Assembly: GCF_030684315.1 (NCBI RefSeq)
Contig: NC_081391.1
Coordinates: 20,110,629-20,174,628 of the forward strand
Direction: 5' to 3'
Origin: Stegostoma tigrinum
Lineage: Eukaryota
Length of the DNA: 64,000 nucleotides
In this document: piece after piece, positions 215-63,457 of the stretch
Position numbering within the stretch: position 1 is the first letter of the stretch
How the letters are laid out: every line of letters begins with the position of its first letter
The notes under the pieces: generated by a model
Databases searched by the model: none
The model's input: the letters and a program-made list of their open reading frames with translations, nothing else
What the model was told of the DNA's origin: nothing
Made by a program: the position numbers and the translations under genes

Positions 215-1191
215 CTTGATGTCCTACAGGAGGACCCAGCACCCACATTCATTCTGGAATGCCATCAGTTTCTCAGCTGTTCCCATTCCTTCAAGGAGTA
301 GTCCCATGAGAACTCAGCAAAGTGACACAGGGCAACATCTTCCCAGTAAAAGTGAAAGGATTGTAAACAGGGAAACCCATTGGGGTTTGCTGTTAAAGAT
401 CCTTCTCTACTTGAAATGCTTCTTCAGTCAGGCCTGCAGGTTCTGGAAGGGAAAGCCTCCCTTGTCAATCACAACAAAAACAACACCAGAATATGTGGAG
501 GCTCTTTCCTTGTAAAGCAGGAGGGAAGGGAAACAAGCATCTTCCTACAAGTTGGGGGGGGGGGGGGGGGGGCGGCGGCGTGAATATTTCATACTTGACT
601 CCAAATATTAAGCATTAAATGACACCTCATCATTCTGAAAGGCCATATGGTTTAGTGAAAATGGCTCAGCTTCAGTGAGGAAACCTTCCAACACAGAACA
701 GAGTTCCCCACTCTGAAGTGAACTTACAAAGTTTACTAGTAAAGTATTGACAGCAAATAGACCCAGAGATTGAGAGTGTTCCTTCCTCTGGGATTGGAGG
801 TCTTGGGTCACATATGTTCTAGAAGTAAGAGATCAGGTCTCTGGGCAGATTGACTTACTCTAACTATTCAATAGAATAAATCCAATTACATTGAACAAAA
901 GAAAAACAAACAGACTTCTCAGGTCAGACATCAAGATCAAACCATTGAAAGATTATTCACTTCTCAACGTCAGGGGAAGGCCACAGAAGATTCTAACATG
1001 AATTGAATGATGCAGAGAGATCCTACACCCACAATACAAGGAGACCACAGCTTTAAATCTGAAATAAATCCAGAGAACACCACAATCACCATGGAGAGAT
1101 AAACATGGGAGAAAGAAAGCACCAGGTTGATCTGCTTGTTAACAACACCCTCACAGTCCTTGTGGTAGCTCTGATGCACCTGGGAGGCCAT
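215..1191 (-). pseudogene. Ferritin locus A, pseudogene (exons 1-2 visible; exons 3-4 would lie left of the window)
   Basis: Exon 1 at 1191-1090 reads [34 protein letters not shown] (ferroxidase Glu24 changed to Val), followed by a GT donor. Exon 2 at 360-215 is 146 nt instead of 147. Its acceptor reads CAA rather than CAG, it carries a 20-bp inversion at 290-309, and a 1-bp deletion near 277 leads to TGA. Confidence 0.9.
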
Positions 1192-1260
1192 CCTCACTAT
1201 TGCTGCTCACAATCACTTGGACAACTCTAGAACTGAGTCTCCCTCCCACAAGCTCTTGTA

Positions 1261-1415
1261 TTTATACTCCAGAGACCATCCTGCACCAACCAGGGAATGA
1301 CATCACTAACAATGATTGACAATCTCTGACAGCCAATCAGGAATCTGCAAGAACCCAGTCACCAATGAACAGAGGAGGAGGAGAGTGGGGCAATGTGCTC
1401 AGACCCAGAGTCAAT
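1261..1415 (-). promoter_or_regulatory. Promoter of locus A (TATA box plus inverted CCAAT-type boxes)
   Basis: TATAAA at 1266-1261, 75 nt from the ATG. Plus strand carries GGGAATGACATCA and AGCCAATCAG, homologous to the other promoters. Confidence 0.7.
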
Positions 1416-5804: not shown

Positions 5805-8900
<3,096 letters not shown>

Positions 8901-8967
8901 CTTCACACCTAATTACAAAAAGCAAACTCAAACAACAGCCTAACCCCACCTCCCATGAGCTCTAGTA

Positions 8968-9120
8968 TTTATGTGAATGGGAATCTGCATTCCAACAGGA
9001 AATGTTATCACCAATAGTGCTTGGCTATTAGGGATTTCCAATCAGCAGCCTCCCATGAATACAGGCATTAATTAGGGAGAGGTGCTGGGGGGAGCTATGT
9101 ACAAAGCAGAGCCAATCGGA
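8968..9120 (-). promoter_or_regulatory. Promoter of locus B (CATAAA TATA variant, CCAAT boxes); homologue at about 42423-42575 for H
   Basis: CATAAATA occupies the TATA position, and CCAAT occurs three times upstream on the plus strand. Confidence 0.6.
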
Positions 9121-9329: not shown

Positions 9330-10285
9330 CATTTCCATCCAGACAGACAAGGGCAGCAGACACGTGAGACCACCACCAACTTCAAGCTCCCCTCCGAGCC
9401 ACTCACCATCCCGACTTGGAAATATGTTGGCGTGCCTTCAGTGTCTCTGGGTGGAAATCCTGGAATTCTCTCTGTACGGCCATCGGGGTCGACATGGGCT
9501 TCATGAAGGCAGTTGAACCCCACCTTCTCAAGGGGAATCTAGCAATGTACAATAAATGCTGGCCCAACCCATGACTGCCCTTGTCCCGCAAGTGAATACT
9601 CAAAAAAATTACAGTGCCGTAGGAGGCCATTTGGCCAATTGTGCTGCACCAGATCCATTGTGCTCATCTCTTGCCATGTCCCTGCACATCACCACGATCA
9701 CAAAAGAAAACCCAATGCTCTCTTCAAAGCTCTTCAAAGCTTCAATTGTATGTGCCCTCCCCACGTCTCCAGGCAGCACATTGCACATACTCTCCACATT
9801 CTGTTTAAAAATGTTTTTTTTTTCTCACTTTACCCTTGCTTTGTTTGCACATCACTTTAACTTTTTCTCTCGTTGACTCTATCAAATCAATTAATCAGCT
9901 TCAAATCTTAATAATAATTCTTCCTTGTTCTTCTACACTCACAGGAACTTGAGGTTTTAAAAAATGTTGTTTTGGGATGTTGGCATCACTGGCGGGGTGT
10001 GTATTTATTGCCCATCCCTAGTTTCCTCTTGAGAAGGTGGTGGTGAGTTGCCTTTGTGAACAGTTGCAATGTCCATCTGGTGCAGATAGACTCAGATTGC
10101 CCCTAAGGAGAGAATTCCAGAAATCTGACTGATTTAACACTGCAGTGACACTGAAGGGACGGTAATATATTTCCAAGCCAGGATGGTGGATGGCTTGGAG
10201 GGGAACCTGCAGGGGGTGGTGTTCCCACGTATCTACTGCCCTTGTCTGAGCAGATGGAAGTGGATGTGGCTTTGGAAGGAGCTGT
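9330..10285. mobile_element. Two oppositely oriented 3' fragments of one LINE family (+ about 9330-9600; - about 9970-10285); duplicates at about 42785-43060 and 44010-44325
   Basis: cagacaagggcagcagacacgtg...gacttggaaatat is mirrored by atatttccaagccaggatgg...cacgtatctactgcccttgtctg. The family (possibly L2) is uncertain. Confidence 0.6.
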
Positions 10286-11499
10286 CAAAATACCTGAATT
10301 TCATCTTCAATGCAAATTGCCTTCATTGTTTAACCCTTTCGACCTGTTGTCATCCTGTGCTGCATTCCCTCAAAGACTCAGAGATCGAGACCTGAATACA
10401 GTATCATAGATATGCACTCACTGGCATTTAATAAATGGTAGCAAAACTGTCCGATCAATAACATGGGGGCATCATTTTAAGGTGAAGAGCAGTAGGTTTA
10501 GAGGGGATTTGCCAAAAACATTTTTCACCCAGATGGTGTGATGGGAATCTGGAATGCACTGTGTGGGAGGGTAGTAGAGATGGGAAACATCACAACTTTT
10601 GAAACGTACATGGATGGGCACTTGAAGTGTCATTACACTCAAGGCTATAGGTGAAGTGCTAGAAAGTGAGATGAGTGTAGATAGGTCAGCACAGACCTGA
10701 TGTCTATGGCCCGAATGTCGATCTCTTTGTAATCCAGACAATTCTGTGCCTGTCCACCAGCTCTTGCAATTTCTGCAGATGGATCCCATAACCTTATGGT
10801 CACCACCAATTCTGTTCCCCGAATGTCACAGTTTAGCTAATTTCTCTTTCTTGTTCCGAAGTGCATGGCCTCACTCTTCCTCACATTGAGGCCTGCCTGC
10901 TGCTGTTTGCTCATTCATTTCAACAATGGCTTGTTGCAAACTTTCAGGTCCCATCCACACCATCCACTTTGTCGCTTAACTTTGTTTTGTCAGGAAATTT
11001 GGACATATATCTCTCGAGTCCTTCATCTACGTCAATCTGTCAATGTGAAACTGAAGCCCAAGTGGAGATCCCTGGGAGTGAGAGTCAAATTTTGTCAATC
11101 AAAGTTGGCAGCCATTCTGTCAGCCACCTTCCCCCTTCCCAATTCCCAACCCATGTCCAACAGTAACTTCCTATTGTACGCGCATGCATTTTTCCTAATT
11201 ATGTCATGGATACTCGTCATTGTGGGAATTGATTTTAGTTGCTTTGACTGTTCTCAAACTGATAGCATCAGTCCTCCAGGTCAGAGCTCCCCAATTCACC
11301 TTAGGGTTTGACGAGTTTGTAAATGAATATTTCTCCCTGTACATGATGTCGAATTAAATGACATCTGAAGGTTTGAAGCATCTCTCATCTGATCCAGAAG
11401 AGGTCAGGGACACTGACACTGATCACAGCAGTTGAGGATATTACCCTGCACGAGATAGCCTGCAGCAAATCTGCAAATCCACCAGTCACACTGGGAAAA

Positions 11500-11595
11500 C
11501 AGAGATAATGGGAACTGCAGATGCTGGAGAATCCAGGATAACAAAGTGTGGAGCTGGATGAACACAGCAGGCCCAGCAACATGTCAGGAGCACAA
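11500..11595 (-). mobile_element. Short Penelope-like 3' terminal insertion with a target-site duplication (duplicate at 45540-45635)
   Basis: Begins cagagataatgggaactgcagatgctggag and is flanked by acactgggaaaacag (11488-11502) and acactgggggaaacag (11595-11610). Confidence 0.75.
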
Positions 11596-12922
11596 CACTG
11601 GGGGAAACAGACAGGATGCCTCTATCGGAATCCTATCACTCCCATTGCTGTTAAGTTTCATGTAAAGCTTTATCCGATCAAGCTCAGGAGCTCTATCATC
11701 CATTCCTTCTTCTGTAAGGAAGTTGCCTGTTGGATTTCTCTTAGATTTGAGAAAAAAAATATGAAAAGCAGTATTAATCTCAGGACGAGAATCAATTCTT
11801 TTGGTATTTCCTGACACCAGAAAATATAGTCCTTTCAATTTAGAGTGCAGGAAATTGTTAAACAAATTGCAGCACGAGAATCGATGTCCAGTACCAGATT
11901 TAAGTCCTGCATGATAATGTCTCACTTCTGCACCCCTGCCCTCCTCAGGACTGACTCTGAGCACTGCAGCATATGGAAAATGACTATTCAGTTAGTTTGC
12001 GACATCCAGGGTAAGCACCAGGATTCCTTACTCATTTAATTGCATGCTTGTGACAAAAAAAAATGGGAGGTAGCGTCCACGTGGCGGACTCCCAGTGCAA
12101 TGGCCACCTACCTCTGTACAACAGAGACTATCACTGGTGTGTCTCGCAAGCCAGCCGGCAAGCAGGCTGTTGTTTGGATAATGAGTGCTTTCCTGAAGTT
12201 TGGCAGAGGGCACAGTTGATTGTCATAAACTCAGCTGTGTTAGCTGTTAATTGCCAGTGCCGAGGGCAGAAAGTAAAAGGAAGCATCAGCCCACCCACTA
12301 TTAAACTTGGGGAGAAAAAAAAAAAGAGTTTTCTAACCACGTGCCAGCAGAATGTATTTCACATGTGCACCAACTACATTGCTGAGATGCTCGAGTCACA
12401 CGTAGGCCAGATCAGGTAATGGTAGCAGATTTCACTCCTCAAGAAAGATTAGTCAAACAGAAGAATGGTAGATATGCAAAACTGTCAGATAGTAAACTGC
12501 CCTGATACACCGGCTGTCTCTTTAGGTCTTTAAGGATTCTGCAAGCTCTCAGCTCACATTTGGAAGAAAGTTGAGCACCGGCTGCCAAACCTCAGTAAAG
12601 TAAGGAACTGCAAAAGCATGTTTAAGAGAAGTGTTGTGTAGTGACAGCATCGCTAGACCAGGGTGGTCAGATTTGAGCCCCACCTGAGAGGTGATTAACA
12701 TCCAAAAATGAATTGATTAGCAGAGGGTTCAACTGTGTCAAAAGGTGACAGAAGCACCTGCCATACAACCTAGATATGATGGATCTGAACAAAAATCAGT
12801 TATTCAATTTCACTAAAAGTGTTTCTTCATTATGGAGATTTTAGTTTCCAATTCAACAAGGGTAGATAAAGTTTCTAAAAGACTAATCCATTTACAGCAC
12901 TGATGGGATTCTAAAATCCCAC

Positions 12923-15243
12923 TCAGCTGAGTGTGAGCCTGTCAAACAGGTACTCTCCCATGCCATTGTCAGGGGCTCCCAGTCTCTTCAGGTTGGTGAT
13001 GTGATCTCCCAGCTTCTTGATCATCTTCTCTTGCTCATCCAAGTAGTGCCTCTCCAGGAAGTCACACAGCTGGAACAAACAGCCAGAATGTAAAGTTAGA
13101 GCAGACATAAACATGAAGAATCACACCATTGCATTTTTGAAGTGATTATAGGTGTGTACAAGTGCATTTATTTGCGAGCAGCTTGCTCTCCAGAAACAAT
13201 GAATAGACTGGAATAGCTTTATTGGCAACTATGCTATTTTAGAAGTGGTTATAGAAAGCCCGGTTTGCCCACAGGGGTCAAACTGTCATTTTTCTGAATT
13301 GTGTGGAAGTTTGTAAATACATGAACCTCACACCAAGTCAGCAGGGCACCTATCAGTGCCTGACATCTATGGTCACGATGGCTGCTTCTCGAGTACTGGA
13401 GAACAGCAAGCCTATGCTAATAGAAGAGCAAGAGCAGATTCCCATGTCACCTTCAGCTCCCTCGAAACATTCATCCCATCAGGAACACACATGAGGGTCT
13501 GTGTTGCCAGAGGCGAGTTTGTGCAGATCCAGCAGACTCTGGTTCACATCCTTCTCCATCTGCAGAGCTGTCTGCATTGCCTCCAGACCACTGCCCCACT
13601 CATCCTGCTCTGGCTTCTGGAGGGAGAAAGCTAGTCATTTGTGTGGTTAGAAGGTCCAAGACTCATATGAGAGCAAGGAAATGGAGACATCTGGTAATCT
13701 GTGCTAAATCCAAACAAAGCATGAAAATCAATTCAAAATTCAGATAAGGTCATGGAGACCATTATCAGACATTTGATCCATCATGAAGAACTGCTGACAG
13801 ATCAGGATTTAAAAACTGGCTGAAACAGTTGGACAACATTACCTGTATTCAGGCAAGTCTACAGTAATGTGTCATAGTCTAAACTGACATTTGGGCCAGG
13901 TCAGTGCTAAAACCCTTTCATTCTGAGCATTCAGATTTGTTGCTTTTTAAGAAAGGCGAGAATTAGCAAAACCAACTCATAACAAGCTGAGACTTTCTAT
14001 CAAGACGCTTCACTCATCTCCACACAAGATGTACAGGGGAGTCTAGAACAGCAAGGCCATTGTACAAGCAGGAAACTACACAATTTACATTTACTCTACA
14101 AGACAGAATCCAACCTTGATGTCCTGCAGGAGGACACGGCCTCCACGTTTATTCTGGAATGCCAGAAGTTTCTCAGCATGTTCCCATTCCTCATGGGACT
14201 GCTCCTTGAAGAAATCAGCAAAGTGACGCAGGGCAACATCATCCTGGTCAAAGAGAGAGAACTGTGTAAAAAGAAACAAAGTGGGAAAGTTGCTCAGTCA
14301 CCGAAGTGACCGTCCATCAGAAAGTAACCCAGTCACCATCATGAATCATCAGAGTTAGGTGAGGGAATGGAGGAATGTTGGCAGGACAAAAGCAGAGAAA
14401 TCATCCCCGTGGAATATGGCCCAAATAGCAGGCATTAGGTTTAGTTTTCCATGAGGGAAGTAAAAGCCAACTGCAACCACTGGCCTGACAGTGCCCTATG
14501 AAGTCAGTTAGTCACAGCCATGAGGCATCCCTATTGCTCAGCACTGGAAGCTGGTCCGGACATGACCAACTGAGGCAGGATGTTGGCTTGTCGACTAACA
14601 GAGCCAGAAGTCTGTCAGCTCCCTCATCAACAAATCTAGTTTCGAGTCTATTCGGCATGGATGCCCAAGTAGAAAATCATACTTGGCATGCAGATTTTCA
14701 ATCAAAATCAAATAGCAACACTTCATCCTCATATTCAGTAGCTAGTAGTCTTTTGCTCCTCAAAAGAGAAGGAGCCAGGTTAATTTGGCAACTTAAAAGG
14801 TAGAAGTTGATGGGAGAAAGTTTCAACAAGCAGAGTGATTTTTATAAGTTCTTCAGCCAATAAAATAGGGTTAAAGTTAGCAGCAAAGCCAGCTTACCCC
14901 TCTGTAGCACCAGCCATACACTGTCCAGAAGAACAATAAGGGCAGGGGACCCTCAAGGGTGAGTTTCAATTTAAGAAACACCTACATTTAAGTGTTCAGT
15001 ATTAAGTGTGTTAGCTGGATTCAGTCAGGGAAGCAGGAGACTCCAGATACATTCTGCAGGTAGTTCATTGAACCAGAAAACACCAAAAGCCTCATCACAA
15101 TTATAATCACAGCCTTAAGTCTTGAAGCAATCAAGCTTCACCACAGAGAGGTAAACATAGGAGGAATAGAGCTCCAGGTTGATCTGCTTGTTAACAGCAT
15201 CCTCACAGTCCTTGTGGTAGTTCTGACACACTTGGGAGGCCAT
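12923..15243 (-). CDS. Ferritin heavy/middle-subunit-like, locus C, intact, 173 aa
   Basis: Exons 15243-15142, 14261-14115, 13616-13491 and 13069-12923 with GT-AG junctions and an open frame. Variants include SHEEWEH and DEQEKM. Confidence 0.93.
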
Positions 15244-15312
15244 TGTCACTCTCCCTGCTCACTATCACCTAGACAGCTCTCATATCAAGTCTTTGTACCA
15301 CAAGCTCCAGTA

Positions 15313-15475
15313 TTTATACTCCTGGGACATCCTATGTTCAACGAGGGAATGACATCACCAATGATGACTGACATTCCCTGAAAGCCAATTCGGAATCTCC
15401 CATGAATTTAGCCCCGCCTCTGCCCTCCCACCAATTAGAGAGAGGGTGTGGGTGTATGAGGCAGAGCTGATCAGA
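15313..15475 (-). promoter_or_regulatory. Promoter of locus C (TATA, TGACATCA, CCAAT, GC box, CACCC box); homologue at about 49350-49512 for I
   Basis: TATAAA at 15318-15313. Plus strand carries GGGAATGACATCACCAAT, CCCCGCCT and AGGGTGTGGG (CCCACACCCT on the gene strand). Confidence 0.7.
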
Positions 15476-15756
15476 GGTGCAGATTGTTGTCAAGTCTGGA
15501 TGGTTATTCTGTGATTGGATCAGCAGTCGGTCATTTAGAATCTCCAATCTGCTGGAACTCTCTATCGGGTCATGGTTAGTTTGAACAAAAAACTAGATTT
15601 GGATTTGGAAAGCTTTTCTTTTTAAACTAAGCTTGTTGTGACCAACTGCAGGAGGTGCTCAATGAAGGAGAATCAGTTTCTGAGCATGTTCTGCTGGGAT
15701 ATTGGAGAGAAAGGTAGGAGATTGATGGTAGTTCATAGAAATTTGTGACAGAAACA

Positions 15757-16520
15757 AACAGGACAAAGACAGGAAAGATGTTTCTGATGACCAATGCGCC
15801 CAGAACCAAGGGTCACTGTCTAAGGATAGAGAATAGTCTGTTTGGGATTGAGATGAGGAGAAATGTCTTCAGCCATACAGTGGGGAGTCTGTTGTATTGT
15901 CTGGGACAGGAAACAGTTGAGGCCAAAAGACTGAAGGTTTTGAAGAGTTAGATGTAGCTGATAGGGCTATGGGGATCAAAGGGTATGGAGAGAGAGTGTG
16001 AAGATGGTACGGAGTTAAGGGATTACCCATCATCATATGGAATGTCAGAGCAGGCTGGAAGGGCTGTATCAAAATGGTTCAAAATTTTGAACATTTCAAT
16101 CAGGTCATCTTCTAATCGTCTCTGCTCCAAGGAGATAAGGCCAATTTTTAAAATCTTTCCTGGTATCATTCCAGCAAATCTCCTTTGCACCGTGCCCAGG
16201 GCTTTAATGCCGTCCCGTAGAAACAGTGCCCAGAATTGAACACAATACTCTAATGCGGTCTGACCAATGGTGTGCAGTGGTGTAGCGTTACTACCTTGGT
16301 TTTATACTCCATGGCTCTCCTTAAAAACACAAGATTCCTATAAGCCTTCTTCATGACTGTTTCATCTTGCCTGGCCACCTTCAGGGAATTGTAGTTTTAA
16401 ATCCTGAGGGCTCCCTGCTCCTGTACTCACCTTGACGTTGTTCCATTGTACCTGTATTATCTCTTCATGTCTCCATGTTTCTTCGACCAAAATGCATTTC
16501 TTGCATTTTTTTGTGTTGAA
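15757..16520. mobile_element. Old CR1 fragments (+ 3' end about 15757-16065; - fragment about 16080-16520); duplicate at about 49783-50545
   Basis: gagatgaggagaaatgtcttcag and ggggatcaaagggtatggagag resemble the CR1 3' region; cccagaattgaacacaatactc is antisense to an EYCVQFW-type motif. Confidence 0.6.
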
Positions 16521-17569
16521 ATTATAAAGTGATTGCCAACATCAAATCTTACCCAATAAAAATCAAGAGATGCAAATTTTGAAGTCTTCAACTGACACCG
16601 GACATGTGTGTGTGTCCACTACCCACTATCCTTTCTGTGAAGAGGCTGTTTCTGACATTATCCTGGGCCGTTTAGCACTAATTTGAAGATTCTATATCCG
16701 TACCATACCTTAAGTCCTAGAAGACCCATTGAGAAGAAACAATTCCTCTGAATCTACCCTGTCAAGTCCATTAATGGTCTTAAAACTTTCAAGTACTGCC
16801 ATCTCTTAACCTTCCATACTGAGGGACTCGGGCAAGCTGCCATCATCATTTAACCAGCTCTTTATCTCTGAGTTGATTCTGGAAATTCTCTGCTGCACCA
16901 TCTTCAGGCCCAACCTGCCGAAAATGAGATCTCCAGGGATGGTTGAACCAGAACTTGACAATTTCATAAAAAACTCCACCCAGAGGTGTTCAAATCCCTT
17001 AGAGATCAGGACTGACATTGAATTAATTTCTTTGTTCAGTGTTTTTATATCTCGTCTCTAGTTTCAATACATTTCTGTCCACTTGTCTCAGTTTCATTTT
17101 GATCATTAGTTTTGACAACCCAGCAGAAGATGTCCCCATTTCTAAAACACTCTGACTCACCTTTCTTGGTCAGGAGTGGATAACTTCGCACTTCCCCTTA
17201 TTGAACTGTATCAGCCAGTCTTCCCCACTCCATGGAAGTTTGAAACATTCCACTGTCATGATAAAGTGCCACTTGATGTAATGCCATCAGCAAATATTTG
17301 AATTGTGGCTGTCCATTTCTTCATCTCGAACATTTATAATCCAAGGAAAATTTAAGGCCCCAGTTTCTCTCCTTGGGGAAAGTAATCACATCTTGCTTTT
17401 TCTTTTATTACCTCATGGGATGAAGGTGTTGTTGGCTGGCCCAGCATTTATTGTACTTCCCTAATTATTATTGTCTTCTTGAATTGCTGTTGTCCATTTG
17501 GTGTAGGGAGATCCATAATGCCATTTTGGACAGAATTCCAGGATTCAGATGGTATGACTGTAGATTGAG

Positions 17570-18520
17570 TTTTGCCTCATGAGCTTCATTGAGTATTTTG
17601 AAGAAGTGATGAAGAGCAATGATGAGGGCAGAGTGGTGGGCGTGATCTACATGGGCTGTAATGAAGCGTTTGACAATGTTGCTCATAGTAAGCTGTTTAG
17701 CAAAGTGAGATCACATGGAATCCATGGAGAATTATCCATTTGGATACAGAAATGGCTCAAAGGTGGAAGGCACAGGGTGCCGGTAGAGGCAACAAAGTGT
17801 GGAGCCGGAGGAACACAGCAGGCCAGGCAGCATCAGAGGAGCAGAAAAGCTGCTGTTTCGGGCTGAGACCCTTCAGAAATTGGGAGGGGGAGGGGAAGCT
17901 CAGAAATAAGGAGGAGGGGTGGGACTGGGGATGGTAGGTGGGATGGTGATGGGTGAGTGCAGGTAGGGAGTGGTCAGTGAGGTGGGAGAGAAGATGAACA
18001 TGAACAGGTCAAGGAGGTGGGGATTGGTCATGGGATGAGGAGACTTTGAAGTTAATAAGGTTAATAAGGTCCACATTTAGTGTCTTGGGCTATAAGCTCC
18101 CAAGGCAGAATATGAGGTGCTACTCCTCTAGTTTGAGGATGACATTGGTGTGATACTGGAGGATGCCCAAGATGGACAGGTCAGCCATGGAGTGGGAGGT
18201 GGGGTGGAAGTTAAAACATTTTGTGATTGGAAAGTGTTGTTGTTTGTTTCTCATTGAGCGCAGATGCTCTAGAGAAACTGTCTCCCTCATGGTGGCTACA
18301 TTGGGTGCAGCCGATACAATAGACCAACTTGAAACAGGTGCAGGTGATCTGTGTCTGATGCCGAAGGTTTGTTAGTTTTTATTTTGAATGGAGACACGGG
18401 GTGGATGTGGTGGTGGGGCGAGGGGGTCAGGGAATGGTGTAGCTGTTCCTGCAGTTGCAGGGAACAGGGCTGGGGTTAATGGGGAGAACAGAGTGGATGA
18501 GAGAGTGGCAGGGATACCAG
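17570..18520. mobile_element. CR1 RT fragment (+, about 17570-17790) joined to an older Penelope-like fragment (-, about 17790-18520); duplicate at about 51596-52546
   Basis: IEYFEEVMKSNDEGRVVGVIYMGCNEAFDNVAH resembles the CR1 motif FFE.VT...D.G..VDV.Y.DFSKAFDKVPH. The following sequence resembles the Penelope-like 3' region. Confidence 0.75.
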
Positions 18521-19806
18521 CGTAGAGGTACTGGGGTGTCCACAGTAAGAGGGGCTATGCCTGCTTCTGTCGGATATGTGGAACAGTCCCTCTTCTGCTG
18601 CTCCACTGGCACTATCCCCTACCTTTTCCTTACTCAAAGATTAACAGTAAATAGCCAGCTACATTGCTGTGTGGGTGGTGAGTCAGCTGTTGGCCAACTG
18701 CTTTCCTTCCCTGAAAGGGTTAGAAAAGTTTAGAACTGCTGAGAGTTGGTCTTTCTGCAAATTAAGTGAAGTGTCTCTTCTACTCTGACCCGCCCCAACC
18801 GAAGCCGAGATGCTATGAAGGGAACTCTGCAGATAAAGAAGGTGAACCAGAGTCTCCCGGATCCCCTTGTCTGCAAATGTAGCTTTAATTGCACCAGCTG
18901 TCCTCAGCAGTTGATTGCTGGAGCAAGAACAGGGACTATGCCACGTTTGTCCCACACGCGACAAGGTGGGCATTGAGGATAGGAGACACTGTTACAGGAG
19001 AGAGCAGATTCCTCACTCAGTCTCCTACAGTGGAGACTTGTTAGAAAATCCAATTCCTTAGCTTTGGAAACTAGAACAGTGGTGTATTGCTTGCTCAAAG
19101 AAGCATGGAGAAAAAGCAACTTGCATGCCAGATGCTATTGCTGTTACAGTCTTATTAAGGAATATTTTGAATGCTTAGATTCTACCAGTAAAGTTAACAG
19201 AATATTACTGGCAAAACTGAGGCCTGGCAGCACCTGGGGACAGACTTCAGTTGTGGAGTCACCAGACTCAAAGATTAACTGGTTTAATCAACACACATCC
19301 AGAGTTCCACCTGCACCTCCCCCGCCACCCGGCAAACCCCAGCAATTTCTATTTTGTTTGATCCCAGCTTTTAGGAAAGTTGGAGCATTGCTCGGGACAG
19401 GGCACCAGTTAAGTGGCTAACAGTTAGATAGAGTGGAGCAATTTTGGTGAAGCTATTCACGAGAGACTACTCTTACAGAATTGTCACAGTGAGGACAAGA
19501 CAGATAGTGAGCATTGCGAACAAGCCAAAAGCTTAACAGTTGTGATTTCCGCAACAATTACTCACTTCAAAAATTCTTCTGACTCTGGATTCAGAAGCTG
19601 AACAAAAATAGCCAGGGCAAGCATTGATTCAATGCAGAGAGCAAAAAGCCGAAGGGACTGAATAATCAGATAATAAACAGCCAAATAAATGAAGCAGTTA
19701 CTTAAAGTAGTCAGATACATGGGAAATGTTTTCATTGACTTTTTTGTGCACTCTGCACTTGCACTAGAACACCAGTGTGCAACAGATGGAGTTGTTGAAT
19801 CCCCGT

Positions 19807-19951
19807 TCAGCTCAGGCTGAGCCTCTCAAACAGATACTCTCCTTTGCCCTTCTGAGGGGCTCCCAGTCTCTTCAGGTTGGTGATGTGATCTCCCAGCTTC
19901 TTGATCATCTTCACTTGCTCATCCAAGTAGTGCCTCTCCAGGAAGTCACAG
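19807..19951 (-). pseudogene. Ferritin locus D, orphan exon 4 with a 2-bp deletion
   Basis: Ferritin exon-4 sequence ending [18 protein letters not shown]. It is 145 nt (plus strand gtcacagctg versus gtcacacagctg in other copies). No exon 3, 2 or 1 lies between it and the 3' flank of locus E. Confidence 0.9.
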
Positions 19952-20270
19952 CTGGAAGACAAGACAAGTTAGTTGAGTCCATTGAAGACATTTGGAAGTG
20001 ACCCTCAATTCAGATCTTACAAATCACTGCCAAGTTGAGGGAGAGGGGCACTCTGGTGATTCATTTGGACTGTTGTAGATTTAACAGTCTGCAGGAGGCA
20101 GTTATGAGACAATTGTATTCCCCCTCCCCCCAGGAGTAGACAAACAGATCACTTTCAGGTTAGAAACATTCATCTTTCCTGTAATTTGAAAGTCATCCTG
20201 GTAGTTTGTTGCTCTGAAGGCCATCAGCCCCACATGCTGAATTTAGCAGTGGATGGCAAGGAAGCACACA

Positions 20271-26673: not shown

Positions 26674-26742
26674 CTTCACTACTCCTGCTCACTATCACCT
26701 CAACACCTCCAGAACTGAACTCCTTTCCTACGAACTCTTTTC

Positions 26743-26875
26743 TTTATACTCCTGGGTCATCCTGCAATCAACCAGGGAATGACACCACCAATGATGACAG
26801 CCAATGAGGAATTGGCATGCATCCAGGCACCAATGAGGGGAATGGGGTGGAGTGAGATACTCAGAGCCAATCAGT
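26743..26875 (-). promoter_or_regulatory. Promoter of locus E; homologue at about 60777-60910 for K
   Basis: TATAAA at 26748-26743, four plus-strand CCAAT motifs and a GGGGTGG (CACCC) box. Confidence 0.7.
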
Positions 26876-33180: not shown

Positions 33181-36147
<2,967 letters not shown>

Positions 36148-40200: not shown

Positions 40201-42355
<2,155 letters not shown>

Positions 42356-46962: not shown

Positions 46963-49280
<2,318 letters not shown>

Positions 49281-52200
49281 TGTCACTATCCCTGCTCACT
49301 ATCACCTAGACAGCTCTCATATCAAGTCTTTGTACTACAATCTCTGGTATTTATACTCCTGGGACATCCTATGTTCAACGAGGGAATGACATCACCAATG
49401 ATGACTGACATTCCCTGAAAGCCAATTAGGAATCTCCCATGAATTTAGCCCCGCCTCTGCCCTCCCACCAATTAGAGAGAGGGTGTGGGTGTATGAGGCA
49501 GAGCTGATCAGAGGTGCAGATTGTTGTCAAGTCTGGATGGTTATTCTGTGATTGGATCAGCAGTCAGTCATTTAGAATCTCCAATCTGCTGGAACTCTCT
49601 ATCGGGTCATGGTTAGTTTGAACAGAAAACTAGATTTGGATTTGGAAAGCTTTTCTTTTAAAACTAAGCTTGTTGTGACCAACTGCAGGAGGTGCTCAAT
49701 GAAGGAGAATCAGTTTCTGCTGGGATATTGGAGAGAAAGGTAGGAGATTGGTGGTAGTTCCTAGAAATTTGTAACAGAAACAAACAGGACAAAGACAGGA
49801 AAGATGTTTCTGATGACCAATGCGCCCAGAACCAAGGGTCACTGTCTAAGGATATAGAGTAGTCTGTTTGGGATTGAGATGAGGAGAAATGTCTTCAGTC
49901 AGACAGTGGGGAGTCTGTTGTATTCTCTGGGACAAGAAACAGTTGAGGCCAAAATACTGAAGGTTTTGAAGAGTTAGATGTAGCTGATAGGGCTATGGGG
50001 ATCAAAGGGTATGGAGAGAGAGTGTGAAGATGGTACTGAGTTAAGGGATTACCCATCATCATATGGAATGTCAGAGCAGGCTGGAAAGGCTGTATCAAAA
50101 TGGTTCATAATTTTGAACATTTCAATCAGGTCATCTTTTAATCTTCTCTGCTCCAAGGAGATAAGGCCAATTTTTAAAATCTTTCCTGGTATCATTCCAG
50201 CAAATCTCCTTTGCACAGTGCCCAGGGCTTTAATGCCCTCCCTTAGAAACAGTGCCCAGAATTGAACACAATACTCTAATGCGGTCTGACCAATGGTGTG
50301 TAGTGGTGTAGCGTTACTTCTTTGCTTTTATACTCTCGGGCTCTCCTTAAAAACACAAGGTTCCTATAAGCCTTCTTCATGACTGTTTCATCTTGCCTGG
50401 CCACCTTCAGGGAATTGTAGTTTTAAATCCTGAGGGCTCTCTGCTCCTGTGCTCACCTTGACGTTGTTCCATTGAACCTGTATTATCTCTTCATGTCTCC
50501 ATGTTTCTTCGACCAAAATGCATTTCTTGCATTTTTTTGTGTTGAAATTAAAAAGTGATTGCCAACATCAAATCTTACCCAATAAAAATCAAGAGATGCT
50601 AATTTTGAAGTCTTCAACTGACACCGGACATGTGTGTGTGTCCACTACCCACTATCCTTTCTGTGAAGAGGCTGTTTCTGACATTATCCTGGGCCGTTTA
50701 GCACTAATTTGAAGATTCTATATCCGTTCCATACCTTAAGTCCTAGAAGACCCATTGAGAAGAAACAATTCCTCTGAATCTACCCTGTCAAGTCCATTAA
50801 TGATCTTAAAACTTTCAAGTACTGCCATCTCTTAACCTTCCATACTGAGGGACTCGGGCAAGCTGCCATCATCATTTAACCAGCTCTTTATCTCTGAGTT
50901 GATTCTGGAAATTCTCTGCTGCACCATCTTCAGGCCCAACCTGCCGAAAATGAGATCTCCAGGGATGGTTGAACCAGAACTTGACAATTTCATAAAAAAC
51001 TCCACCCAGAGGTGTTCAAATCCCTTAGAGATCAGGACTGACATTGAATTAATTTCTTTGTTCAGTGTTTTTATATCTCGTCTCTAGTTTCAATACATTT
51101 CTGTCCACTTGTCTCAGTTTCATTTTGATCATTAGTTTTGACAACCCAGCAGAAGATGTCCCCATTTCTAAAACACTCTGGCTCACCTTCCTTGGTCAGG
51201 AGTGGATAACTTCGCACTTCCCCTTCTTGAACTGTATCAGCCAGTCTTCCCCACTCCATGGAAGTTTGAAACATTCCACTGTCATGATAAAGTGCCACTT
51301 GATGTAATGCCATCAGCAAATATTTGAATTGTAGCTGTCCATTTCTTCATCTCGAACATTTATAATCCAAGGAAAATTTAAGGCCCCAGTTTCTCTCCTT
51401 GGGGAAAGTAATCACATCTTGCTTTTTCTTTTATTACCTCATGGGATGAAGGTGTTGTTGGCTGGCCCTGCATTTATTGTACTTCCCTAATTATTATTGT
51501 CTTCTTGAATTGCTGTTGTCCATTTGGTGCAGGGAGATCCATAATGCCATTTTGGACAGAATTCCAGGATTCAGATGGTATGACTGTAGATTGAGTTTTG
51601 CCTCATGAGCTTCATTGAGTATTTTGAAGAAGTGATGAAGAGCAATGATGAGGGCAGAGTGGTGGGTGTGATCTACATGGGCTGTAATGAAGCGTTTGAC
51701 AATGTTGCTCATAGTAAGCTGTTTAGCAAAGTGAGATCACATGGAATCCATGGAGAATTATCCATTTGGATACAGAAATGGCTCAAAGGTGGAAGGCACA
51801 GGGTGCCGGTAGAGGCAACAAAGTGTGGAGCCGGAGGAACACAGCAGGCCAGGCAGCATCAGAGGAGCAGAAAAGCTGCTGTTTCGGGCTGAGACCCTTC
51901 AGAAATTGGGAGGGGGAGGGGAAGCTCAGAAATAAGGAGGAGGGGTGGGACTGGGGATGGTAGGTGGGATGGTGATGGGTGAGTGCAGGTAGGGAGTGGT
52001 CAGTGAGGTGGGAGAGAAGCTGAACATGAACAGGTCAAGGAGGTGGGGATTGGTCATGGGATGAGGAGACTTTGAAGTTAATAAGGTTAATAAGGTCCAC
52101 ATTTAGTGTCTTGGGCTATAAGCTCCCAAGGCAGAATATGAGGTGCTACTCCTCTAGTTTGAGGATGACATTGGTGTGATACTGGAGGATGCCCAAGATG

Positions 52201-53830: not shown

Positions 53831-53977
53831 TCAGCTCAGGCTGAGCCTCTCAAACAGATACTCTCCTTTGCCCTTCTGAGGGGCTCCCAGTCTCTTCAGG
53901 TTGGTGATGTGATCTCCCAGCTTCTTGATCATCTTCACTTGCTCATCCAAGTAGTGCCTCTCCAGGAAGTCGCACAG
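53831..53977 (-). pseudogene. Ferritin locus J, orphan exon 4 (duplicate of D), frame and acceptor intact
   Basis: 147 nt reading [48 protein letters not shown], preceded by a TTGTCTTCCAG acceptor. It has no upstream exons of its own. Confidence 0.85.
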
Positions 53978-58469: not shown

Positions 58470-60707
58470 TCAGCTCAGTGTGAGCTTGTCAAACAGGTAC
58501 TCTCCCATGCCATTGTCAGGGTCTCCCAGTCTCTTCAGGTTGGTGATGTGATCTCCCAGCTTCTTGATCATCTTCACTTGCTCATCCAGGTAGTGCCTCT
58601 CCAGGAAGTCACACAGCTGGAACAAGGAGCCAGAATGTAATGTTAGAGCAGACACATCAACAATCACACCATTGCGCTTTTGCAGTGATATAAGTGTGAA
58701 CAAGTGCTGGTATTTGAGAGCAGCTTGCTCTCCAGAAACAATGAACAGACTGGAATAGCTTTATTTGCAACTTTGCAAATGCAGAAATGGTGACAGAAAC
58801 CTGAGTTTACCCACCAGGGATCAAACTGCCATTTCACAGAATTGGGTGGAAGTTCTAAACACTTACGCCTCTCACCAAGTCAGCAAAGCACATATCAGTG
58901 ACTGACATCTATGTTCAGGATGGCTGCTGCTCTCAAACACTGGGACAATAGCAAGCCTATGCCTGTAGAACAGGAATAGCAGATTCCCATGTCACCTTGA
59001 GCTCCCTCGAGACATGCATCCCATCAGGAACTCACATGAGGGTCCGTGTGGCCAGAGGCGAGTTTGTGCAGATCCAGCAGACTCTGGTTCACATCCTTCT
59101 CCATCCGCAGAGCTCTCTGCATTGCCTCCAGACCATTGCCCCACTCATCCTGCTCTGGCTTCTGGAGGGAGAAAACACAGTCATTAATGAGGTTAGAAGG
59201 TCCAAGACTCGTACAAAGGCAAGAAAAAGACGACATATGGTAATCTGTGCCAAATCCAAACCAAGGATTAATAACAATTCACAATTCACAGAAGGTCATG
59301 GAGACCATTATCAGACATTTGATCCATCATTAAGAACTGCTGACAGATCAGGGCTAAAGATTGAAACATTGGGATGAAGTTACCTGTATTCAGGCTAGTC
59401 TACAGTAATGTATCAGTCTAAACTGTCATTGGGGCAAGTTCAGTGCTAAAACCCTTTCATTCTGATTTGTTGATCTTTCAGAAAAGGAAAGAATTAGCAA
59501 AACCAACTCACATCAAGCAGAGACTTTCTATCAAGACACCTCACTCATCTCAACACAAGATGTACAGGGGAGTCTGGAACACCAAGGCCATTGCACAAGC
59601 AAGAAACAACACAATTTGCATTTACTACAAGAAATAGACCCCAACCTTGATGTCCTGCAGGAGAACACGGCCACCACGTTTATTCTGGAATGCCATCAGT
59701 TTCTCAGCATGTTCCTGTTCCTCATGGGACTGCTCCTTGAAGAACTCAGCAAAGTGACGGAGGGCAACATCATCCCGGTCAAAGTAAGAGAACTGTAAGC
59801 AGAAGGGAACAGAAGGCAAGACTAAAATTTCATCACCAGCTAAAAGAGTAAAATAGTAAGCTATTTAACAACTGACTGTATCACAAGTCACTTAAAAAAT
59901 AAACAGGTGACAATTGATCACAGCATTGATGTTACACATCATCTCCAGACAAACATTCCTCTCCTCCTTCCCCCACCACCCTACTCAAGTCAGCAACACT
60001 AGCTCCTCCCCCAAAAGGAACCCAATAATTAGAGACTATAATCTAATCTAATACTGTAATTGCTTCATGGAAACATCCAGTATTAAACATGGACATGAAC
60101 ATTAGACTTTTCCTGACACCATACACTTCAGAACATAAAAGACAGAGGAGGATGCTAACCAATTGTGCAGTAAGGCTCAGCAGTTAGCACTACTGCCACA
60201 CAGTGCCAGGGGCCCAGGGTCTGATTAAAACTGTGCATGTGAAGTTCACACATTCTCTCCAAAGATGTGGGTTTCTTTTCACTGCCCATATATGGGCAGA
60301 TGATGTTGACCAGCTATGCTAAATTGCCCATAATGGCCAGGGCAGGTGGGTTAGCCATGGGAAGTGCAGGGTCACAAGGGGACAGTAGGTGGGAGTGCTC
60401 TTGAGAAGGACTCAATTGGACAAGTGACCTATATCTACATTATAGAGATGCTAATGATTATGATACCCAGCCAAAGAGAACCACTCTCAGAAGGAGTAAT
60501 TTAGATTTCAGCACTCTGCTTATTAAACAAGAGAACTTCTAGGTATTATCAGAATTACATTTAAATGCATTGTCTGCATTGTAAAATGAGACAATCAAGC
60601 CTCACCATGGAGAGGTAAACATAAGAGGAATAGAGCTCCAGGTTGATCTGCTTGTTAACAGCATCCTCACAGTCCTTGTGATAGTTCTGACACACTTGGG
60701 AAGCCAT
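58470..60707 (-). CDS. Ferritin heavy/middle-subunit-like, locus K (duplicate of E), intact, 173 aa
   Basis: Exons 60707-60606, 59792-59646, 59161-59036 and 58616-58470 with an open frame. Variant LGDPDNG. Confidence 0.95.
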
Positions 60708-63457
60708 CTTCACTACTCCTGCTCACTATCACCTCAACACCTCCAGAACTGAACTCCTTTCCTACGAACTCTTTTCTTTATACTCCTGGGTCATCCTGCA
60801 ATCAGCCAGGGAATGACACCACCAATGATGACAGCCAATGAGGAATTGGCATGCATCCAGGCACCAATGAGGGGAATGGGGTGGAGTGAGATACTCAGAG
60901 CCAATCACAGTTTTGAAATGGCAGCAAATCTGTGATTGGTCCCAGGAGCTGAAGGAAGCCTGAAGGTGACTGGGGGCCAAAAGCAATGTGTTGACTTTTA
61001 TCTTGCTTCTGGAATGGCGTCAGGCCACTCGGCCTAACAGCAATTACGAATGGATATCAGTGGTTGGCATCATTAGCAACAGCCATATTCTATGAAATGA
61101 CTGAAACAAAACTCACTCCAGGGCCAAAATCAGAGTAATGTACTCCACATATAGTATATTCTGTACTGCATACAATATTGACATAGCCTGTACATTCTAG
61201 TCCTCTCCCTCCATCGAGATGATGACTAAACTGCTGTGAGCCTTTTCAGTTCAATTTTGCTGCAGACTGTGAGTTTTTAAGTCATTTCTACACATGGTTT
61301 CCTAACTCTGTGCTTTTCTTCAGTTCCTAGCTCTGTTTCTTTGACAAAACTCTCATTTATCTTGGTGCAAGTTTGCTTTTCCTCACATGTTATTGATGTT
61401 GTTGATAATATTCTGCCTGTTTATGGTACTATCGTGCCAACTGATAGAATGCCATCAGGAAGCGTGAGAGAGATCTCTATTCTTTTGTCAATGTCACATG
61501 GAAATATATGGACGTCAGAGGACCCTGTGGGGAAGAGACAGAAACATCGAAACCCAGAACACAAGGGCAGGCGGAGGCCATTCAGCCGTTTGAGCCTTCT
61601 CCACCATTCTATATGATAATGGCTGATCCCAGCAAACCCAACAGTGTGTTCCTGCTTTCCCTCCATATCGTTCGATCCCTTTAGCCCCAAGCACTAGATC
61701 CAACAATTTGAAATCAATGCTTTGGTCTCAACTGTGTACCGTGGTTGCAGATTCCACAGGCTCTCCCACTGTCTTGGTGAAGAAATGTAATAGCCCATCC
61801 ATGACACCAGGTTACACACAAATTGCCGATCGACAGTCAGATACCGACCTGTTTCGGAGAGTCCACAGTCAGTGTGTATCAGTTTGCTGTTTGGGATGAT
61901 AAGTATTTTGACTAAGTAACACATGCATTTCTGCATTGACTGGAGATTAATGAAGCTTAGGGCTTGACGAGTAAAGTTGCCAGCAGCAAGGAATCAGATG
62001 TCGCCCTGGCCAAAGATGTTTCACAGTTAGTGTCTGCGAAATGATTAGAACTTTTGGCAATCCTGGTGGGTTGATGCCAATCTATTATGTAAACACCTGA
62101 CTTACACACTGTCCCCCACGCCCTTGCAGAGTGAGCCTGAAGCAGATTTGTCCCAGACCCTGAATGCGGTAACAAGGTCCTTCCTGATCTGTTACTACTT
62201 AACATTGCAGCTGACAGAGACAGATGGGGATCAAGAGCAGAGGAAACATTCAACTGTGTTCTGAAGCGTCACCGTACTTGAAATGCTTACTCGGTGTCTC
62301 TCTCTCTCTCTCTCTATGGATGCTAGCGGACTAGCTGAGTTTCTCCAATAATCTGTTTTGTCTCCAGGTTGTCAACATCCACAAATCTTCAGTCCCACTT
62401 GCAACGCTTGGAAATGCCCGACAGATCCGAACAAAGACTGTAGTCACAAGCTAATGGACATTATCGTTAAATGTTGAATGCAGAAAGTCACCTATGAATT
62501 ATACTGCAACTTTGCATTCATTTCAGCTACTTTGGAACTAGTCTAACGATGACCACAAAGCTGTTGTTGGAGAAAGCCCACCTTATCGACTCATGTCCTT
62601 GACCGATAGAGTGAGGATATGGAGTTAGGCCAGTAAAAGGAAGCAGCTTGTATTCTACAAGAGAAACCCAGTACAAGAGAAACCTGGGTCCCCTCAGGCA
62701 TGAATTGAGCAAAGCTCCGATTGAGATATTAAGCATTTCCCTTTGCTTTTATGACCAAAGGATCAGAGTGTGGAGGCTGATGCAGCGGCAAGAGTATCGC
62801 ACACTGTGCCCCTAAGAATAACGTAATTCAAACTCTCCTGAGAGTAATCTGGAATTTTTTAAAATGAAAAAAAGGCACTCTTTCATCTCCCTCATTTAAA
62901 CTCTTACTTGCTAAGGTTTCAGAAGCATGTGCTTAGCTCTGATTGTTGAGCAAGACATGCAAGCAGATTGTCCAGTTAGAGCCTTGTGGCTCAAGTTAAG
63001 GGATACCCTAGCCAGTTTATGGCAAAGGAGAGGTTTAACCTCCGGCACAGGTCATGCACTAGCATTCGTTAGGCTGGAATGCAGTGGCTACTGAATGAAA
63101 AGAAAGCTGAACCAATTAAAGGAAGAGACAGATGTGCAGTCAGGTTTTCAGGAGCTGAGAAAAAGGCAGATGCACTAGTGGTGTGGAAGGAAAACCTGCA
63201 GGATTGTATTAAATGGCAGACAGGAGTCAAGGAAGCTGATGGCCTACATTCAGACCCCTGCCTTGTACTTCACTGTAGCCACATCACGGGGGAGGGGGGG
63301 GGGGGCAGGAAGGTAAATGTTTGATGATCAGTCTAGGAATTAGTTACACAGGAGAACGTAGTTGAGTGAATATTTTATTTCCACATGCAGCAATAGAGAA
63401 ACCGATACAAATAATTCTGCTTTCATGTACAATAGTGAAGCAATTCCAAACTGCCAC

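What the first reader, a model, noticed from the sequence alone, without database searches (positions are those of the whole stretch)
1191..60782. All eight visible ferritin promoters lack an iron-responsive element
Seen: in A, C, E, I and K a TATAAA starts exactly 75 nt upstream of the ATG, with variants at the same place in B, G and H. That leaves a predicted 5' UTR of about 45 nt, with no CAGTGN loop and no IRE-like stem between TATA and ATG in any copy. Known: canonical vertebrate H, L and M ferritin mRNAs carry a cap-proximal IRE bound by IRP1/IRP2. Inference: the whole family has escaped IRP translational control and is set transcriptionally, which fits a specialised iron-independent role.
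Basis: partly seen in the sequence, partly recalled or inferred. Interest (0 to 1): 0.8.

Follow-up and report, generated by a model that had tools for sequence, protein, structure and literature searches.

The report
Shark ferritin array without iron switch
These genes belong to a very large shark cluster of iron-storage (ferritin) genes that lack the RNA switch tying ordinary vertebrate ferritin production to iron levels, while the animal's two everyday ferritin genes keep it, probably so that ovaries can mass-produce ferritin on a developmental schedule.

Summary
Confirmed. None of the eight ferritin leaders has an IRE. The window is a slice of a 1.6-Mb tandem array with at least 127 exon-1 copies on its contig. 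No IRE was found in 86 of 86 sampled array promoters; the single-copy H and M genes of the same genome each carry a canonical one. Two clean retrocopies begin 43-48 nt before the ATG, at the initiator about 30 nt after the TATA box; one has a poly(A) remnant and a target-site duplication. That argues against a hidden upstream IRE exon. The 'iron-independent role' is not supported: ferroxidase residues are intact and dN/dS is below 1. The array belongs to a shark-and-ray-wide clade. A Greenland shark preprint already reports a ferritin expansion expressed in ovary, without mentioning IREs in that section. Best reading: germline, probably oocyte, iron-storing ferritins whose synthesis is set by promoter and copy number rather than by IRPs. 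IRE-less ferritins are known (mitochondrial, snail yolk). Loss across a vertebrate array was not found in ten searches. No RNA or binding data were obtained.

The parts
58470..60707 (-). Intact 4-exon ferritin gene, 173 aa (exons 60606-60707, 59646-59792, 59036-59161, 58470-58616)
   Evidence: open frame, GT/AG sites; ferroxidase residues intact
60708..60750 (-). Predicted 5' leader of about 43 nt, purine-rich, no IRE; start inferred from initiator and retrocopies
60777..60782 (-). TATAAA at -75, with several inverted CCAAT (ATTGG) boxes in the 200 nt upstream
46963..49355 (-). Intact ferritin gene (ATG 49280) with TATAAA at 49350-49355; IRE-less leader
40201..42428 (-). Ferritin gene (ATG 42355) with a frameshift in exon 2; CATAAA variant at -73; IRE-less leader
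33181..36222 (-). Intact ferritin gene (ATG 36147); GTTAAA variant at -75; a stemless CAGTGC at -96 lies upstream of the TATA box
24440..26748 (-). Intact ferritin gene (ATG 26673), duplicate of the 60707 gene; TATAAA at 26743-26748
12923..15318 (-). Intact ferritin gene (ATG 15243), duplicate of the 49280 gene; TATAAA at 15313-15318
5805..8973 (-). Intact ferritin gene (ATG 8900); CATAAA variant at -73; 5' part of the 42355 type, 3' UTR of the 36147 type (recombinant)
215..1266 (-). Ferritin pseudogene (ATG 1191, exon 2 broken); TATAAA at 1261-1266; IRE-less leader
63458..63981 (-). Exons 3-4 of a further copy whose exons 1-2 lie just right of the window (L004:1599 and 623); its promoter is also IRE-less
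29414..29939 (-). Orphan exons 3-4 (no exon 1-2 found between it and the 36147 gene)
53831..53977 (-). Orphan exon 4 (its duplicate lies at 19810-19950)
9862..29950 (+). 20-kb block repeated at 43902-63995 (98.5% identity; period about 34 kb)

Best explanation
The window is part of an elasmobranch-specific array of ferroxidase-competent, M/H-type cytosolic ferritin genes that lost the 5' IRE before the array expanded. Step 1 (shown in sequence): each copy has a compact promoter of 2-6 mostly inverted CCAAT boxes, a TATA box and an initiator, CpG-poor, unlike the IRE-bearing H and M genes. Step 2 (indirectly shown by retrocopies): the mRNA starts 43-48 nt before the ATG and has no IRE. Step 3 (inferred from the IRE/IRP mechanism): IRP1/2 cannot block its translation, so output is set by promoter activity times gene dosage (more than 127 copies). 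Step 4 (inferred from germline retrocopies here and ovary expression in another shark): the genes are switched on in the ovary, most likely in growing oocytes. There they build ferritin ahead of iron arrival, when low free iron would keep the H and M mRNAs repressed, to stock and detoxify iron for a large egg and a long embryonic development. The job is still iron storage; only the trigger is developmental. The housekeeping H and M genes keep iron-responsive control for somatic cells.
For: No IRE in 86 of 86 array promoters (600 nt each; 69 distinct leaders), against 2 of 2 controls. A genome-wide pattern of the ferritin IRE core with <=2 mismatches gave 9 hits (3 for the reversed control): exact only at the H and M genes, none inside the array. 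ATTGG occurs 200 times proximally versus 32 distally in 76 promoters. The TATA box lies 73-77 nt before the ATG in 63 of 76, with 40 initiator matches at TATA+31 to +34. Retrocopy C11 (L084) starts at -46/-48, its flanks matching two consecutive parts of one host repeat. Retrocopy C43 (L108) starts at -43/-44, has an A-run and a 14-of-17 target-site duplication ending 2 nt before that start (1 of 2000 random 30-mers reach the score). Ferroxidase residues are intact and dN/dS is below 1. The clade spans sevengill, saw-, horn, cat-, mackerel and carpet sharks and a sawfish (SH-aLRT 98). All 6 intronless copies examined are of the array type (5) or the 13-Mb type (1), none of the H or M type; fixed retrocopies require germline mRNA (established knowledge). 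Greenland shark preprint 10.1101/2024.09.09.611499, section 6 read: 155 FTL + 179 FTH1 copies, largest cluster expressed specifically in ovary. Ferritin mRNA is the predominant transcript of a subtracted primary-growth ovary library in coho salmon (PMC2262088, passages). Three aconitase-family loci exist, compatible with IRP1, IRP2 and ACO2 but not individually identified.
Against: The ovary expression comes from another species, and that cluster's orthology to this array is inferred, not shown; ovary could mean follicle or epigonal cells rather than oocytes. Oocyte-type signals were not found: the Figla-type E-box CAGCTG in 1 of 76 promoters, and no 3' region with both a CPE and a poly(A) hexamer among 10. 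The link between CCAAT/Y-boxes and oocyte promoters is recalled, and the one search for it gave no supporting passage. Retrocopies can be 5'-truncated: 2 of 5 clearly are, and a third is too decayed to place better than -26 to -44. 4 of 76 promoters (the 8900 type) have an acceptor-like AG 8 nt before the ATG. Many copies are broken and dN/dS between paralogues is only moderately low (median 0.36), so part of the copy number may be neutral.
Confidence: 0.55

Rival explanations
1. IRE-less and transcriptionally set, but somatic: an immune, stress or secretory-tissue ferritin (for example epigonal lymphomyeloid tissue, which adjoins the shark gonad, or uterus or shell gland) that withholds iron from microbes or limits oxidative damage.
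For: IRE loss suits any cell that must make ferritin regardless of iron. Mammalian mitochondrial ferritin lacks an IRE and responds to oxidative stress (PMC13010531, passages). Bulk 'ovary' RNA in sharks can include epigonal tissue (recalled).
Against: ARE-like motif in 0 of 76 and MRE-like motif in 2 of 76 proximal promoters. The retrocopies need germline transcripts. No signal peptide: the proteins start with the standard cytosolic N-terminus.
Confidence: 0.17
2. The IRE was lost once by accident in an ancient duplicate, and the array grew by neutral unequal crossing-over; the copy number has little adaptive meaning and most copies are dispensable.
For: Recent near-identical 34-kb duplication, recombinant genes, orphan exons and pseudogenes (2 of 8 exon-1 genes in the window are broken). 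Some paralogue pairs have dN/dS of 0.55-0.79.
Against: The clade is kept across sharks and a ray. The preprint reports clusters syntenic between Greenland and white shark. Promoter boxes and the ferroxidase site are conserved.
Confidence: 0.13
3. One reading: the array proteins have moved to a role that does not involve iron (structural yolk or storage protein, crystallin-like filler, amino-acid reserve).
For: Extreme gene dosage is typical of bulk structural or storage proteins (established knowledge). Ferritin is a yolk protein in snails (PMC10799875, passage).
Against: Seven of seven ferroxidase residues are kept in 6 of 6 intact window genes and 22 of 28 homologues; the three-fold channel Cys/Asp/Glu are kept too (residue roles recalled, checked against frog M ferritin).
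Confidence: 0.08
4. The absence is only apparent: real transcripts begin further upstream or splice in an IRE exon, or a non-canonical element binds IRP.
For: No transcript was seen directly. An acceptor-like AG occurs in 4 of 76 leaders. A bare CAGTG occurs in the last 50 nt of 4 of 86, without a stem.
Against: No retrocopy extends beyond -48. No IRE lies inside the array by genome-wide pattern or Rfam (which scored only 82 candidates). A wider list of 17 loop variants gave 0 of 86. Copies lie in both orientations, so they cannot share one leader exon.
Confidence: 0.07

Closest known systems
Ferritin expansion of Greenland and white shark (bioRxiv 10.1101/2024.09.09.611499; section 6 read)
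   Same: Hundreds of tandem ferritin copies in a few clusters, ancient in sharks; probably the same array (inferred from the clade)
   Different: That section labels copies FTL/FTH1 by human similarity and reports ovary expression; it says nothing of IREs, promoters, leaders or a separate clade. Its supplements were not seen.
Vertebrate ferritin M (frog, teleost) and H chains
   Same: 4 exons, 173 aa, ferroxidase site; exon 2's best PDB matches are frog M ferritin; 71-75% identical to the genome's own M and H
   Different: All five salmon H and M isoforms carry IREs (PMC4117605, passages), as do this genome's H and M; the array has none and forms its own clade
Snail yolk ferritin (Lymnaea, Biomphalaria; PMC10799875, passage) and schistosome ferritins (reference title only)
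   Same: IRE-less ferritin serving the egg, alongside ordinary soma ferritins
   Different: Snail yolk ferritin has a signal peptide and a 42-aa insertion; the shark proteins have neither and come from a very large intron-bearing array
Mammalian mitochondrial ferritin FTMT (PMC13010531, passages)
   Same: Vertebrate, ferroxidase-bearing, no IRE, controlled by transcription
   Different: Intronless gene with a mitochondrial leader, likely a retrocopy; the array genes keep all introns and are cytosolic
Mouse Fthl17 family (PMC2887969, passages)
   Same: Clustered ferritin paralogues with early-embryo expression
   Different: Seven X-linked imprinted genes; IRE status was not addressed in the passages seen; intronless and ferroxidase-poor (recalled)

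Membership tests
Canonical IRE-regulated vertebrate ferritin mRNA (H, L, M) | 5' IRE: CAGWGH loop, 5-bp upper stem, C bulge, near the cap | tested here: not met
   0 of 8 window and 0 of 86 array promoters; 2 of 2 controls positive
Canonical IRE-regulated vertebrate ferritin mRNA (H, L, M) | IRP1/IRP2 binding and iron-dependent translation | not testable with these tools
   needs gel shift or reporter
Ferroxidase-active ferritin subunit (H/M type) | Ferroxidase residues equivalent to human H E27, Y34, E61, E62, H65, E107, Q141 (numbering recalled) | tested here: met
   E24, Y31, E58, E59, H62, E104, Q138 in 6 of 6 intact genes; the same set in frog M P0097
Ferroxidase-active ferritin subunit (H/M type) | 4-exon/3-intron gene, about 175 aa, Pfam Ferritin | tested here: met
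Ferroxidase-active ferritin subunit (H/M type) | Measured ferroxidase activity and 24-mer assembly | not testable with these tools
   no assay; no structure prediction was run
Orthologue of FTH1 or of ferritin M | Groups with the species' own H or M gene in a tree | tested here: not met
   The array forms a separate 35-row clade (SH-aLRT 98); H groups with chimaera P0115 (97) and M with catshark P0111 (99). Quick tree, no bootstrap. The C20 gene lies about 40 kb from a bestrophin gene, as FTH1 does (recalled).
Orthologue of FTH1 or of ferritin M | Descent from the M locus rather than H | tested here: inconclusive
   The M gene lies about 50 kb from the array end and dS is lower to M (1.0-1.2) than to H (1.8-2.2), but the tree leaves the branch open
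Yolk ferritin (gastropod type) | No IRE | tested here: met
Yolk ferritin (gastropod type) | Signal peptide and 42-aa insertion | tested here: not met
   173-aa proteins with a standard N-terminus; no in-frame upstream exon is implied by the retrocopies
Yolk ferritin (gastropod type) | Accumulates in oocyte yolk | not testable with these tools
   only the ovary expression reported for Greenland shark
Mitochondrial ferritin (FTMT type) | Intronless gene with N-terminal targeting peptide | tested here: not met
   window genes have introns and no extension

The most novel reading that the evidence does not exclude
Sharks and rays evolved a dedicated vertebrate egg-iron system convergent with invertebrate yolk ferritin. 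Two gene clusters on one chromosome share one CCAAT/TATA germline promoter type and both lack the IRE. One is the ferroxidase-active array of more than 127 copies; the other is a cluster of at least 7 copies at 13.4-14.0 Mb whose subunit has Lys and Glu in place of two ferroxidase residues (L-chain-like). Together they would build oocyte-specific H/L-like heteropolymer cages outside IRP control, with gene amplification replacing translational induction.
Probability: 0.25. Interest if true: 0.72.

Novelty: new variant of a known kind. Interest (0 to 1): 0.5.

Why it matters
Cytosolic vertebrate ferritins are the textbook case of IRE/IRP translational control. Here an intron-bearing, catalytically intact clade of more than a hundred genes, shared by sharks and a ray, appears to sit outside that control while the H and M genes stay inside. 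That gives the shark ferritin expansion, so far only counted, a testable logic: programmed over-production for the egg instead of iron-triggered production. It also warns that annotating these copies as FTH1 or FTL, or reading them as a general anti-ageing iron defence, may mislead. In humans, losing the FTL IRE causes disease (hyperferritinaemia-cataract; PMC11719527, passage), so tissue-restricted transcription is predicted to be what makes the loss tolerable. Tempering this: IRE-less ferritins and the expansion itself are already in print.

Tried and rejected
(1) IRE relic. By eye the leader resembles the M gene's TATA-to-IRE stretch with the 5' arm removed, but the tests did not support it. 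Median z was 1.3, with 3 of 61 leaders at p<=0.01 against shuffles. The majority leader's score against the M region was reached by 78 of 686 unrelated windows and a profile HMM gave no hit. One leader (L033) did beat 686 of 686 windows, and the majority leader scored higher against the H region (reached by 3 of 686), mostly outside the IRE. How the IRE was lost is unresolved. (2) Expression: no RNA holder listed. The four runs laid (one sample) cover introns evenly and behave as DNA; exon bins were far deeper than flanks, but the tool states this is no copy number. (3) GYS1-based synteny for the M/L locus: glycogen synthase loci are on C20 and C33, none on C50 (stricter first look), so FTL orthology by neighbourhood is not shown. 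(4) Oocyte signals: Figla-type E-box 1 of 76; CPE and poly(A) hexamer together in 0 of 10 3' regions. The literature search for CCAAT-driven oocyte promoters gave 2 papers; the one opened had no supporting passage. (5) L-chain identity of the 13-Mb cluster by PDB search was inconclusive: exon 2's best matches were chains named only 'Ferritin', with an 'L ferritin' eighth; for exon 4, M and L chains scored within 1 bit. (6) Earlier findings of the scan: none. (7) Ten paper searches listed no paper on IRE status of shark ferritins; the library lacks most subscription journals. A second Greenland shark preprint has 0 occurrences of 'ferritin' (10.1101/2025.02.19.638963). Passages of PMC13007054 and 10.1101/2020.05.01.071498 added nothing. 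(8) The tree is the quick IQ-TREE result because the careful search did not finish; it used 62 of 120 listed homologues, chosen as roughly full length, plus 12 own gene models. (9) Promoters of other sharks could not be examined: no tool here holds their genomes.


Full report
Observation. The window holds eight ferritin first exons on the minus strand (ATG at 60707, 49280, 42355, 36147, 26673, 15243, 8900, 1191). TATAAA begins 75 nt upstream in 5 of 8, and variants sit at -75 or -73 in the other three. None has CAGTG between TATA and ATG, and no IRE geometry was found in the stretch scanned upstream (up to 3 kb). Rfam reports nothing at gathering score and no IRE among 9 weak matches at E<=10. 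Six genes are intact (173 aa, GT/AG introns), 42355 is frameshifted and 1191 is a pseudogene. A 20-kb block is duplicated at 98.5%, so the eight are about five independent promoter types.

Context. The window is G000:C50:20.11-20.17 Mb. The closest named proteins are from carpet sharks. An exon-1 search gave 150 matches of at least 91% identity from 150 scored of 419 candidates; by hand count 127 lie on C50 and 23 on the small contig C216. This is a floor, since searches list further places. The array runs from about 19.95 to 21.56 Mb in both orientations. Beyond its right end lie a divergent ferritin gene, a ferritin with a long N-terminal extension and, at 21.609 Mb, an M-type gene with a canonical IRE ending about 96 nt before its ATG. 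A second IRE-bearing gene on C20 lies about 40 kb from a bestrophin gene, the FTH1 neighbourhood as I recall it. These two are the only Rfam IRE matches in the genome search (82 candidates scored). They are also the only exact hits of a ferritin-IRE core pattern, whose 9 hits at up to 2 mismatches (3 for the reversed control) include none inside the array. Three aconitase-family loci are present, compatible with an intact IRP system but not identified one by one.

Family-wide test. I scanned 600 nt upstream of 86 array first exons spread over the array and C216 (69 distinct leaders; includes the 8 window genes). There were 0 canonical IREs and 0 hits with a wider, recalled list of 17 loop variants, against 2 of 2 controls. 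Four of 86 have a bare CAGTG in the last 50 nt with no stem. The 7 sampled genes of a second cluster at C50:13.4-14.0 Mb also lack a canonical IRE; they show one non-canonical loop hit more than 130 nt upstream, beyond their TATA box.

Is the short leader real? Three lines say yes. First, promoter anatomy: the TATA box lies 73-77 nt before the ATG in 63 of 76 promoters, 40 initiator matches fall at TATA+31 to +34, and 71 of 76 have two or more CCAAT boxes within 200 nt upstream, against 0.55 expected. ATTGG occurs 200 times proximally and 32 times distally. Second, retrocopies record mRNA 5' ends. The C11 copy (L084) is intronless and has a poly(A) signal and an A-run. Its flanks match two consecutive parts of one host repeat, so the 5' flank is host DNA and not an extra exon; ferritin homology starts at -46 to -48. 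The C43 copy (L108) starts at -43/-44, at the initiator, ends in an A-run and is framed by a 14-of-17 direct repeat that ends 2 nt before that start (1 of 2000 random 30-mers score as high). The C23 copy is decayed (-26 to -44), and the C5 and C2:140 Mb copies are truncated. None of the 5 passes -48. Third, an acceptor-like AG occurs in only 4 of 76 leaders and is lost in the close copy 42355. No transcript was observed directly.

Is the protein still an iron protein? Yes, by sequence. The seven ferroxidase-site residues (roles recalled, positions checked against frog M ferritin) are present in 6 of 6 intact window genes and 22 of 28 clade homologues. dN/dS is 0.17-0.79 in 15 of 15 window pairs, median 0.36. 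Exon 2's best solved relatives are frog M ferritins. There is no signal or targeting peptide.

Age and identity. In a quick IQ-TREE tree of 74 rows (SH-aLRT only; 62 of 120 listed homologues plus 12 own gene models), the array genes form a 35-row clade (98). It contains proteins named from sevengill, saw-, horn, cat-, hound-, white, basking, whale, bamboo and zebra sharks and a sawfish, and is separate from the IRE-bearing H and M genes. The family thus predates the shark-ray split if those rows are placed correctly. Whether the other species' copies lack the IRE could not be tested. Descent from the M locus is suggested by adjacency and by lower dS (1.0-1.2 to M against 1.8-2.2 to H) but is not resolved. 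A tempting IRE relic in the leader failed its tests.

Where it acts. The Greenland shark preprint (10.1101/2024.09.09.611499, section 6 read in full; supplements not seen) reports 155 FTL and 179 FTH1 copies in clusters syntenic with white shark, the largest expressed specifically in ovary. In this genome, all 6 intronless copies examined derive from the array (5) or the 13-Mb cluster (1), none from H or M. That points to abundant germline mRNA, though H and M retrocopies were not searched for separately. Ferritin mRNA is abundant in zebrafish follicles and coho primary-growth ovaries (PMC1488847 and PMC2262088, passages), and snail yolk ferritin lacks an IRE (PMC10799875, passage). Against an oocyte reading: the Figla-type E-box occurs in 1 of 76 promoters, and no CPE-plus-hexamer pair occurs in 10 3' regions. 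Against a stress reading: an ARE-like motif in 0 of 76 and an MRE-like motif in 2 of 76.

Mechanism. Shown: IRE-less CCAAT/TATA/initiator promoters, intact catalytic residues, large copy number, IRE retention in H and M. Indirectly shown: a 43-48-nt leader and germline transcription. Inferred: escape from IRP repression; oocyte expression; a role in pre-building iron-storage capacity for a large egg and long development. I put that whole chain at 0.55. The rivals are a somatic or immune programme (0.17), neutral amplification (0.13), a non-iron role (0.08) and a hidden IRE (0.07).

Novelty. IRE-less ferritins are known: mitochondrial ferritin (PMC13010531, passages) and snail yolk ferritin. 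The shark expansion is in a preprint. Salmon H and M isoforms all have IREs (PMC4117605, passages). IRE loss across the shark array, its promoter type and the retrocopy-defined start were not found in ten searches of a library that lacks most subscription journals. Verdict: a real feature, a new variant of a known kind, interest 0.5.

Noticed in passing
L070:5988-6257, L071:4667-4999, L001:1-46 and 1255-1410 (G000:C50, about 21.59-21.60 Mb, + strand): Intron-bearing ferritin gene with a 60-aa N-terminal extension (10 Arg, 10 Leu, no Asp or Glu), a CpG-rich promoter and no IRE. It looks like a mitochondrial ferritin that arose independently of the intronless mammalian FTMT; a review passage says FtMt is known only from mammals, Drosophila and some plants. 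Targeting was not tested.
   Followed up: partly
L075-L077, L093-L096 (G000:C50:13.39-14.05 Mb): Second cluster of at least 7 near-identical ferritin genes with the same promoter type (TATA at -93; TGATGTCATT motif in 7 of 7), no canonical IRE, and Lys59 and Glu138 in place of ferroxidase Glu and Gln. L-chain-like by recalled criteria; PDB searches were inconclusive.
   Followed up: partly
L069:4854 to L068:5226 (G000:C50, about 21.57-21.58 Mb, - strand): Single divergent, intact, IRE-less ferritin gene between the array and the M gene, on a long branch and with several changed ferroxidase-region residues.
   Followed up: partly
window 5805-8973: The 8900 gene is a recombinant: promoter and 5' part of the 42355 type, 3' UTR of the 36147 type, a mark of unequal crossing-over.
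   Followed up: partly
array promoters, about 28-40 nt upstream of TATA (window near 36250 and 15345): Conserved CRE-like motif TGATGTCATT (<=1 mismatch in 33 of 86, against 1 distally); binding factor unknown.
   Followed up: partly
L020 and L046 (G000:C50:20.419 and 20.864 Mb): Two first exons with promoters only 390-450 nt apart, that is, tandem duplication of promoter plus exon 1 within one gene.
   Followed up: no
window leaders of 49280 and 15243: An upstream ATG about 40 nt before the start opens a 4-codon frame very near the predicted cap; 19 of 86 leaders have an ATG in the last 48 nt, some directly before the start.
   Followed up: no
L084 (G000:C11:45.82 Mb): After the retrocopy's A-run come about 50 nt resembling a shark LINE/SINE 3' end (recalled), suggesting template switching. 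The host repeat encodes a GIY-YIG/Penelope-like frame (recalled) and also occurs in the window at 22061-22658 and 56088-56685.
   Followed up: no
G000:C216 (267 kb): Small contig made largely of array copies with spacing similar to C50:21.0-21.5 Mb; it may be an unplaced or alternative haplotype piece, so it should not simply be added to the copy count.
   Followed up: no
window 58470-60707, 33181-36147, 24440-26673, 12923-15243, 5805-8900: No AATAAA or ATTAAA within 400 nt after the stop codon in 5 of 6 intact genes; 15243 has a one-base change at the site that 49280 keeps. Poly(A) sites lie further out or are non-canonical.
   Followed up: no
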